In this document: piece after piece, positions 43,759 to 44,397 of the stretch
Numbering within the stretch: position 1 is the stretch's first letter
Layout of the letters: the number at the start of each line of letters is the position of its first letter
NCBI RefSeq assembly: GCF_030013205.1
Contig: NZ_CP122648.1
DNA length: 64,000 nucleotides
Source: Escherichia coli
GTDB taxonomy: Bacteria > Pseudomonadota > Gammaproteobacteria > Enterobacterales > Enterobacteriaceae
Strand: one strand, 5' to 3'
The notes under the pieces: model-generated
Databases searched by the model: none
What the model was told of the DNA's origin: nothing
What the model saw: the letters and a program-made list of their open reading frames with translations, nothing else
Made by a program: the position numbers and the translations under genes

Positions 43759-44196
43759 TTAAACCATCACCAGCGATAACTCTTTGCCAAGCGCCTTAGC
43801 CGCAAGCTGGACGGCGTCGATTTTTGTCGCATGGTGCAAGTTAAATAAGCGAGTAATTTCCTGTTTAGGTTTGCCAATTCGCCTGGCTAACTCTTGCTGA
43901 GTGATTTCTGACTGTAAAAAAGCATTTAACAGCAATACTTTAGAGGCGACGCTCAAAGGCACTTCAATAAAGTGATCGTGACTATTTAATGGCGAAGGTA
44001 AAGGGATAAGCTCGTTATCTTCAAAATAAAAATCAAATGCGGTCAGTAAAGCATCTTTTGCCGCTTCCATCGCTTCAGCGACAGTTTCGCCCTGGGTCAA
44101 CGCTTCAGGGATATCCACAAAAGAAACCATATAACCGCCTTCCGGCGCGGGTGTAAGAGTGACGGGATAACGCATAATTTCGACTGTCTCTCGCAT
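43759..44196 (-). CDS. hicB: HicB antitoxin (145 aa; alternative start at 44175 gives 138 aa)
   Basis: ORF translation MRETVEIMRYPVTLTPAPEGGYMVSFVDIPEA...; C-terminal HTH; 24 bp downstream of hicA. Confidence 0.85.
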   Translation of the reverse strand: MRETVEIMRYPVTLTPAPEGGYMVSFVDIPEALTQGETVAEAMEAAKDALLTAFDFYFEDNELIPLPSPLNSHDHFIEVPLSVASKVLLLNAFLQSEITQQELARRIGKPKQEITRLFNLHHATKIDAVQLAAKALGKELSLVMV

Positions 44197-44220
44197 GTCA
44201 TTAACCTTTTTAATTGGCGA

Positions 44221-44397
44221 TTAACTCAAACCGAGTTGCTTCAGGATTGCTTTACGCAATGGTTCTTTTATCTCATCATTGGGGTGACGCGGCATGACAC
44301 TGCGTCGCCCTTGAAACCTGAGTTTCAAATGGTTGCTGCCATTCGCCACATCGACGCCCTGAGATTCGAGCCAACGTCTGAACTCGCTTTGTTTCAC
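44221..44397 (-). CDS. hicA: HicA mRNA-interferase toxin (58 aa), GTG start
   Basis: Hand translation VKQSEFRRWLESQGVDVANGSNHLKLRFQGRRSVMPRHPNDEIKEPLRKAILKQLGLS with GGGAGG RBS. Confidence 0.8.
   Translation of the reverse strand: MKQSEFRRWLESQGVDVANGSNHLKLRFQGRRSVMPRHPNDEIKEPLRKAILKQLGLS

What the first reader, a model, noticed from the sequence alone, without database searches (positions are those of the whole stretch)
43759..44397. hicAB type II toxin-antitoxin pair
A 58-aa HicA toxin (GTG start, strong RBS) lies 24 bp upstream of the 145-aa HicB antitoxin, in the classic arrangement. It is one of four TA-type loci in this window.
Basis: partly seen in the sequence, partly recalled or inferred. 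Interest (0 to 1): 0.3.

Follow-up and report, generated by a model that had tools for sequence, protein, structure and literature searches.

The report
Known E. coli hicAB toxin-antitoxin operon
This is the well-studied chromosomal hicAB toxin-antitoxin operon of Escherichia coli, intact and in its usual place, differing from the laboratory strain only by two amino acids in the toxin, so it is an ordinary, already explained feature.

Summary
Both genes lie on the minus strand. hicA is 44397..44221, with a GTG start, 58 aa and a GGGAGG ribosome-binding site. hicB follows on the same strand. Its longest ORF is 44196..43759 (145 aa, 24-nt gap). The start used by RefSeq, UniProt and PDB entry 6HPB is Met8 at 44175 (138 aa, 45-nt gap).

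Pfam scores both proteins above its curated cut-offs: HicA_toxin for the first, HicB_lk_antitox plus HTH_3 for the second. HicB is 100% identical to crystallised E. coli K-12 HicB. HicA matches it at 56 of 58 residues (H29Q, C40N) and keeps the catalytic His23.

Gene order yncJ | hicA-hicB | ydcR and 98% DNA identity show it is the orthologue of K-12 b4532/b1438. 5415 of 5426 complete E. coli genomes have a match and 4248 cover at least 80% of the query. The exact allele occurs only in pig or wild-boar isolates, including O139:H1 and strains named ETEC.

A perfect palindrome, GTAAACA-N4-TGTTTAC, lies 33-50 nt upstream of the start codon. It fits the published HicB operator and P2 promoter layout, but I could not check it against the primary paper.

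Nothing here is new, so interest is low.

The parts
44221..44397 (-). hicA: 58-aa HicA toxin (mRNA interferase), GTG start and TAA stop. Differs from K-12 HicA by H29Q and C40N; His23 is retained.
   Evidence: ORF list. Pfam HicA_toxin 35.2 bits, above the cut-off of 27. 56/58 identical to PDB 6HPB chain A. RefSeq annotation of the identical DNA as hicA.
44402..44407 (-). Shine-Dalgarno GGGAGG of hicA, 4 nt upstream of the GTG.
   Evidence: Read directly from the sequence; identical in K-12.
43759..44175 (-). hicB: 138-aa HicB antitoxin and repressor from the accepted start (Met8 of the long ORF). [quoted passage not shown]
   Evidence: Pfam HicB_lk_antitox at residues 10-74 and HTH_3 at residues 95-141 of the 145-aa ORF. 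100% identical to 6HPB chain B. RefSeq annotation. Exact sequence in the protein collection, named HICB_ECOLI.
44176..44196 (-). Whether they are translated is unresolved.
   Evidence: ORF list. 6U0I was crystallised with them. Distant plasmid homologues mostly begin aligning at residues 6-10. The Pfam domain starts at residue 10. One of only two amino-acid polymorphisms seen in 12 sequences (E3G) falls here. The upstream AAGG is a somewhat better SD than the one before Met8 (read from the sequence).
44430..44447 (.). Perfect inverted repeat GTAAACA-N4-TGTTTAC, 33-50 nt upstream of the hicA start. It is a candidate HicB operator (hicO).
   Evidence: It is the only inverted repeat found in the intergenic region. 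Both arms are identical in K-12; only a spacer base differs. [quoted passage not shown] Its identity with hicO was not verified because the primary paper is not held.
44416..44424 (-). TGATATACT, an extended -10-like element (TGn + TATACT) just downstream of the palindrome. It is a candidate P2 -10; a transcript from it would start at or next to the hicA SD.
   Evidence: My reading of the sequence; inference only. The consensus promoter scan did not report it because no good -35 is present.
44398..44618 (-). 221-nt yncJ-hicA intergenic region. In K-12 it carries P1 (CRP-S, Sxy-dependent) and P2 (HicB-repressed). It differs from K-12 at 4 positions: 44529, 44451, 44450 and 44440.
   Evidence: Alignment to K-12. 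Promoter architecture from reviews of Turnbull & Gerdes 2017 (PMC11594946; PMC8138530). The CRP-S site itself could not be located by consensus.

Best explanation
This is the chromosomal hicAB type II toxin-antitoxin operon of Escherichia coli, orthologous to K-12 b4532/b1438. It is carried here by a strain of a pig-associated lineage that includes O139:H1 isolates.

By identity with the experimentally studied K-12 system, it should work as follows:
- HicA is a small dsRBD-fold endoribonuclease that cleaves mRNA independently of translation, using His23.
- HicB also binds a palindromic operator just upstream of hicA and represses the proximal promoter P2.
- The P2 transcript yields HicB but not HicA, and excess HicA releases HicB from the DNA. 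A rising toxin:antitoxin ratio therefore selectively replenishes antitoxin.
- A distal promoter, P1 (CRP-S, Sxy-activated), makes the full bicistronic message.
- Lon degrades HicB.

Shown here: gene anatomy, family membership, near-identity to the solved proteins, synteny, retention of His23 and presence of the palindrome. Inferred from the literature on K-12: catalysis, neutralisation and the two-promoter circuit.
For: - Pfam hits are above the gathering scores for both proteins.
- HicA is 56/58 identical to 6HPB_A, and HicB is 145/145 and 138/138 identical to 6U0I and 6HPB_B.
- The 938-nt locus is 100% identical to sequence annotated hicA/hicB in 16 complete genomes and matches 5415 of 5426 E. 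coli genomes.
- It has the same neighbours as in K-12 and 19 differences in 938 nt from K-12. All 7 differences in hicB are synonymous.
- The exact HicA allele is seen on 193 contigs.
- Across 12 E. coli sequences, pN/pS is 0.16 for hicA and 0.02 for hicB, so both are under purifying selection.
- The palindrome lies at 44430-44447.
- Mechanism comes from PMC10865869, PMC11594946, PMC8138530 and PMC6957337.
Against: - Nothing contradicts the identification.
- The effect of H29Q and C40N on toxicity or HicB binding is untested. C40 is the majority residue in the alleles sampled.
- The operator and P2 assignments are my reading of the sequence, not checked against the primary paper.
- No CRP-S site within 3 mismatches of the consensus was found in a plausible position.
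- NCBIfam and PADLOC contain no model that hits HicA.
Confidence: 0.94

Rival explanations
1. The locus is an attenuated or decaying module. The two substitutions weaken HicA, so in this lineage the pair is mainly a HicB repressor with a weak toxin, on the way to the loss seen in other E. coli lineages.
For: - hicA is repeatedly inactivated in E. coli. A 22-bp frameshifting deletion leaves hicB intact.
- A 445-bp deletion removes hicA and the 5' part of hicB in O25b:H4-type genomes.
- Only 4248 of 5415 genomes with a match cover 80% or more of the locus.
- Natural alleles with His23 replaced (H23N, H23Y) exist in the same 90% cluster.
- hicA is about 8-fold less constrained than hicB.
Against: - The ORF, start codon, SD and His23 are intact.
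- Position 29 varies naturally (H/R/Q/Y) among alleles named as functional HicA.
- pN/pS of 0.16 still indicates purifying selection on hicA.
- The allele is stable across 17 complete genomes at 99.9% identity or better and 193 contigs.
Confidence: 0.08
2. The molecular mechanism is the same, but the biological role is abortive-infection phage defence rather than a stress- or competence-linked growth brake.
For: Gerdes 2024 argues from genetic contexts that HicA toxins act generally in anti-phage defence (PMC10865869).
Against: - The locus sits among core metabolic and transport genes (rlhA, yncJ, ydcR, ydcSTUV), not in a defence island.
- PADLOC has no hit for HicA and only marginal HTH-level hits for HicB (E 0.002-0.009).
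- No phage phenotype for K-12 hicAB came up in the papers read.
Confidence: 0.15
3. The two ORFs are chance open frames or mis-called genes.
For: None.
Against: Pfam hits above the cut-offs, identity to crystallised proteins and conservation across thousands of genomes.
Confidence: 0

Closest known systems
Escherichia coli K-12 hicAB (hicA b4532 / hicB b1438; PDB 6HPB, 6HPC, 6U0I)
   Same: Same chromosomal position (yncJ | hicA hicB | ydcR), gene order, gene lengths, start codons, SD and 45/24-nt spacer. HicB protein is identical. HicA is 56/58 identical with His23 retained. Both arms of the upstream palindrome are identical. The whole locus is 98% identical at DNA level.
   Different: HicA carries H29Q and C40N; the C40N codon differs at all three bases (TGC to AAT). 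There are four base changes in the promoter region. One lies in the 4-nt spacer of the palindrome (44440) and two lie 2-3 nt upstream of its promoter-distal arm (44450-44451).
HicA Q29/S40 allele of E. coli 19KM1831 (WP_000813797.1)
   Same: It is the closest other allele outside the pig lineage. It shares Q29, and the locus is 98.6% identical.
   Different: It has Ser rather than Asn at position 40, so it looks like an intermediate between the common Cys40 and the Asn40 seen here.
HicAB systems with ribbon-helix-helix HicB (Burkholderia pseudomallei HicAB, Streptococcus pneumoniae HicBA, Yersinia pestis HicA3B3)
   Same: [quoted passage not shown]
   Different: Those HicB proteins use an RHH DNA-binding domain and form tetramers or octamers. 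This one has an XRE-type HTH (Pfam HTH_3) and, as in K-12, an A2B2 complex. Sequence similarity is too low for phmmer to link the toxins. S. pneumoniae HicB (5YRZ) matches only the N-terminal domain, at E = 0.0057.

Membership tests
HicA toxin family (Pfam PF07927) | Profile match above the curated gathering score | tested here: met
   35.2 bits against a cut-off of 27; residues 5-57 cover profile positions 3-58 of 58.
HicA toxin family (Pfam PF07927) | Small single-domain protein of 50-100 aa with a dsRBD-like alpha-beta-beta-beta-alpha fold | tested here: met
   58 aa and 56/58 identical over the full length to the crystal structure 6HPB chain A. The fold description comes from PMC10865869. 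No model was built here.
HicA toxin family (Pfam PF07927) | Catalytic histidine (His23 in E. coli HicA) | tested here: met
   His23 is present in the alignment with 6HPB_A. Its role is described in PMC8138530 and PMC11594946.
HicA toxin family (Pfam PF07927) | Translation-independent mRNA cleavage and growth arrest on expression | not testable with these tools
   Needs a toxicity or RNA cleavage assay; inferred from 97% identity to the tested K-12 protein.
HicB antitoxin family (Pfam PF15919 plus a DNA-binding domain) | N-terminal HicB-like (partial RNase H) domain | tested here: met
   PF15919 scores 32.8 bits against a cut-off of 27, at residues 10-74 of the 145-aa ORF.
HicB antitoxin family (Pfam PF15919 plus a DNA-binding domain) | C-terminal DNA-binding domain (HTH or RHH) | tested here: met
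   HTH_3 PF01381 scores 31.4 bits against a cut-off of 23, at residues 95-141. The protein is identical to 6HPB_B.
hicAB type II TA operon | Toxin gene immediately upstream of the antitoxin gene, same strand, short spacer | tested here: met
   hicA is 44397..44221 and hicB starts at 44196 or 44175, both on the minus strand, with a 24 or 45 nt spacer.
hicAB type II TA operon | Direct neutralisation of HicA by HicB, and a labile (Lon-sensitive) antitoxin | not testable with these tools
   Inferred from protein identity with K-12 HicB and the 6HPB complex (PMC10865869).
E. coli K-12 hicAB orthologue | Same chromosomal neighbours and high DNA identity | tested here: met
   rlhA-yncJ-hicA-hicB-ydcR-ydcS in both; 919 of 938 nt identical.
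E. coli K-12 hicAB orthologue | Palindromic HicB operator (hicO) at the proximal promoter P2 | tested here: inconclusive
   A perfect 7+7 palindrome lies at 44430-44447, with arms identical to K-12. A 7-nt inverted repeat in 231 nt is not improbable by chance (my estimate: about 0.4 expected). The published hicO sequence could not be read.
E. coli K-12 hicAB orthologue | Distal promoter P1 with a CRP-S site | tested here: inconclusive
   The best matches to TGCGA-N6-TTCCA or TGCGA-N6-TCGCA in the intergenic region have 3 or more mismatches, and none is convincing. The region differs from K-12 at only 4 of 221 positions, so the K-12 site should be present.

The most novel reading that the evidence does not exclude
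HicA residues 26-32 and 38-41, which include the H29Q and C40N changes here, would form a variable surface that is being tuned in E. coli lineages, for example to alter RNA target preference, HicB affinity or escape from a phage-encoded inhibitor. The pig-lineage Q29/N40 allele would then be functionally distinct from K-12 HicA rather than neutral.
Probability: 0.07. Interest if true: 0.35.

Novelty: already known. Interest (0 to 1): 0.07.

Why it matters
It matters little beyond correct annotation. hicAB of E. coli is one of the best characterised type II toxin-antitoxin modules, with biochemistry, a crystal structure and a worked-out two-promoter regulatory circuit. This copy is an intact natural allele of it. 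Two minor points may be useful. First, the Q29/N40 toxin allele marks a pig-associated lineage that includes O139:H1 isolates. Second, the locus is a convenient natural series for studying how chromosomal toxin genes decay while the antitoxin is kept: intact, 22-bp frameshift in hicA, and 445-bp deletion.

Tried and rejected
- **NCBIfam:** no hit for HicA, HicB or YncJ at E <= 0.01, so the RefSeq names are not reproduced by any NCBIfam model in this scan. This does not count against membership, because Pfam and the PDB matches are decisive.
- **PADLOC:** no hit for HicA and only marginal HTH-level hits for HicB, so there is no support for filing the locus as a catalogued defence system.
- **Consensus promoter and terminator scan:** no sigma-70 site reported in the hicA upstream region and no intrinsic terminator after hicB. 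The three promoter-like hits lie inside the start of hicB or upstream of ydcR.
- **CRP-S search:** the window-wide search allowing 3 mismatches gave 271 hits against about 295 expected, so it was uninformative. A targeted scan of the 221-nt intergenic region with four motif variants found nothing better than 3 mismatches. P1 was therefore not placed.
- **Primary papers:** Turnbull & Gerdes 2017, Manav et al. 2019, Jorgensen et al. 2009 and Sinha et al. 2009 are not held. The mechanism is cited from open reviews and from PMC6957337.
- **Linking HicA to other solved HicA structures:** phmmer at E <= 10 found none.
- **Positive selection on hicA:** considered and rejected, because pN/pS is 0.16.
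- **Rfam:** no RNA family within or next to the locus.
- **Not run:** no structure prediction or large protein-database search, because near-identity to solved structures made them unnecessary.

Full report
**What is there.** The ORF list and the raw sequence show two consecutive ORFs on the minus strand inside 43759-44397.
- The upstream ORF runs 44397..44221. It has a GTG start, codes for 58 aa and ends in TAA. GGGAGG lies at 44407-44402, four nucleotides before the start.
- The downstream ORF, as the longest open frame, runs 44196..43759 (145 aa).
- A second in-frame ATG at 44175 gives 138 aa and a 45-nt spacer.
The strand was not stated.

**Family and identity.** Pfam assigns the 58-aa protein to HicA_toxin (35.2 bits, cut-off 27). 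It assigns the 145-aa protein to HicB_lk_antitox (residues 10-74, 32.8 bits, cut-off 27) plus HTH_3 (residues 95-141, 31.4 bits, cut-off 23).
- Against the PDB, HicA is identical to E. coli HicA (6HPB chain A) at 56 of 58 residues. The differences are H29Q and C40N, and the catalytic His23 is retained.
- HicB is identical over all 145 residues to 6U0I and over 138 residues to 6HPB/6HPC chain B.
- NCBIfam and PADLOC hold no model that hits the toxin. That reflects the content of those libraries and is not evidence against membership.

**Where it comes from.** The 938-nt stretch between ydcR and yncJ matches 5415 of 5426 complete E. coli genomes, and 4248 of them cover at least 80% of it. It is annotated hicA/hicB there.
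- It is 100% identical in 16 genomes and 99.9% identical in one more. All 17 are pig or wild-boar isolates, including O139:H1 and strains named ETEC.
- The neighbours are the same as at K-12 b4532/b1438: sutR, rlhA, yncJ | hicA, hicB | ydcR, ydcS.
- Alignment to K-12 shows 19 differences in 938 nt. Four are upstream, nine are in hicA (two amino-acid changes) and seven are in hicB (all synonymous).
- The exact HicA sequence is on record from 193 contigs. The HicB sequence is the one named HICB_ECOLI.

**Which HicB start.** RefSeq, the UniProt-named sequence and 6HPB use Met8, giving 138 aa. 6U0I uses the long form.
- Evidence here leans weakly to Met8. The Pfam domain begins at residue 10.
- tblastn alignments of distant plasmid homologues mostly begin at residues 6-10.
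- One of only two amino-acid polymorphisms in 12 E. coli sequences (E3G) falls in the seven extra residues.
- Against that, the AAGG eight nucleotides before the first ATG is a somewhat better SD than anything before Met8 (sequence).
- This is unresolved, and it does not affect the interpretation.

**Regulatory anatomy.** The only inverted repeat in the 221-nt yncJ-hicA intergenic region is a perfect GTAAACA-N4-TGTTTAC at 44430-44447, 33-50 nt upstream of the GTG.
- Its arms are identical in K-12; one spacer base differs.
- Immediately downstream lies TGATATACT (44424-44416, minus strand). I read this as an extended -10. A transcript from it would start at or beside the hicA SD.
- This fits the published description of K-12. 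A distal promoter P1 with a CRP-S site, activated by Sxy, expresses both genes. [quoted passage not shown]
- I could not read the primary paper, so equating this palindrome with hicO is an inference. By my estimate a 7-nt inverted repeat in 231 nt is expected about 0.4 times by chance.
- The consensus promoter scan did not report P2. I could not place the CRP-S site.
- Because the region differs from K-12 at only four positions, the K-12 elements should be present.

**How it most likely works.** This is inferred by identity with K-12.
- HicA is a dsRBD-fold RNase that cleaves mRNA independently of translation, using His23.
- HicB covers His23 with helix alpha-1 of its partial RNase H domain and dimerises through its HTH into an A2B2 complex.
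- HicB represses P2, and excess HicA releases it, so antitoxin is selectively replenished.
- Lon degrades HicB.
- None of these activities can be tested with the tools here.

**Variation in the population.** Twelve E. coli sequences give pN/pS of 0.16 for hicA and 0.02 for hicB. Both are under purifying selection, the toxin about eight-fold less tightly.
- Amino-acid variation in HicA clusters at residues 26-32 and 38-41.
- Position 29 is H, R, Q or Y in natural alleles.
- Position 40 is Cys in most, Ser in a few and Asn here. A Q29/S40 allele (strain 19KM1831) looks like an intermediate.
- Some alleles in the same cluster have lost His23 (H23N, H23Y).
- Other lineages carry a 22-bp frameshifting deletion in hicA with hicB intact, or a 445-bp deletion from the operator into hicB, as in O25b:H4-type genomes.
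- The copy in this window is intact. The attenuation rival therefore gets a low but non-zero weight.

**Comparison and verdict.** The locus is a member of the HicA and HicB families. Every sequence-testable defining feature is met. It is the orthologue of the K-12 operon.
- It differs from RHH-type HicAB systems (B. pseudomallei, S. pneumoniae, Y. pestis) in having an HTH-type HicB.
- It is already known.

**Other things seen in the window.** These are listed separately under 'noticed in passing'. The most notable is an IS91-like element that has replaced about 19.7 kb between narZ and pqqU.

Noticed in passing
window 30299-32121 (transposase ORF 30703-31935 +): An IS91-like element sits between a truncated narZ (homology ends at 30298) and a truncated pqqU (homology resumes at 32122). 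It replaces about 19.7 kb that is present in the close relative W13-16 (narH, narW, narI, yddE, nhoA, the RHS locus, ansP, yncE and others). The exact junction is found in only one complete genome, pig strain ETEC4079. Sibling strains have IS91 at the same narZ end but different right-hand junctions (RHS, ansP), which suggests one-ended IS91-mediated deletions of different sizes.
   Followed up: partly
window 15557-15841 (+): yddM, annotated as a HigA-family addiction-module antitoxin, has no adjacent toxin gene, so it is an orphan. It is 100% identical to the W13-16 gene.
   Followed up: partly
window 36801-36974 (-): ortT, an orphan toxin, lies next to the small stress-response membrane protein gene yncL (37169-37264).
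   Followed up: partly
window 59718-60013 (+) and 60429-60492 (+): The hokB/sokB type I toxin-antitoxin locus is here: Rfam sok scores 113.8 bits at 59718-59869, and the hokB CDS is at 59864-60013. The RydC sRNA follows at 60429-60492 with 92.5 bits.
   Followed up: partly
window 19843-19901 (-): A selenocysteine insertion sequence (Rfam SECIS_3, 84.3 bits) lies inside fdnG, as expected for formate dehydrogenase-N.
   Followed up: no
L005 (strain 98206), L006 (O25b:H4), compared with window 43681-44618: The hicAB locus is polymorphic in E. coli. Some genomes carry a 22-bp deletion that frameshifts hicA and leaves hicB intact. O25b:H4-type genomes carry a 445-bp deletion from inside the upstream palindrome to about codon 60 of hicB. 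Only 4248 of 5415 genomes with a match cover 80% or more of the locus.
   Followed up: partly
HicA protein cluster (P0014, P0015; alignment A2): Natural HicA alleles in the same 90% cluster have the catalytic His23 replaced (H23N, H23Y). Variation clusters at residues 26-32 and 38-41. hicA pN/pS is 0.16 against 0.02 for hicB.
   Followed up: partly
window about 47603-48774 (+), from L003 15227-16398: ydcO (BenE-family transporter) is annotated as frameshifted in the nearly identical W13-16 sequence. This part of the window is 99.996% identical to it, so the pseudogene is probably present here too. The frameshift was not checked in the window.
   Followed up: no
window about 22607-22623: W13-16 carries an IS3-family insertion that splits a porin gene at this point. 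The window lacks the insertion, so the porin gene is uninterrupted here.
   Followed up: no
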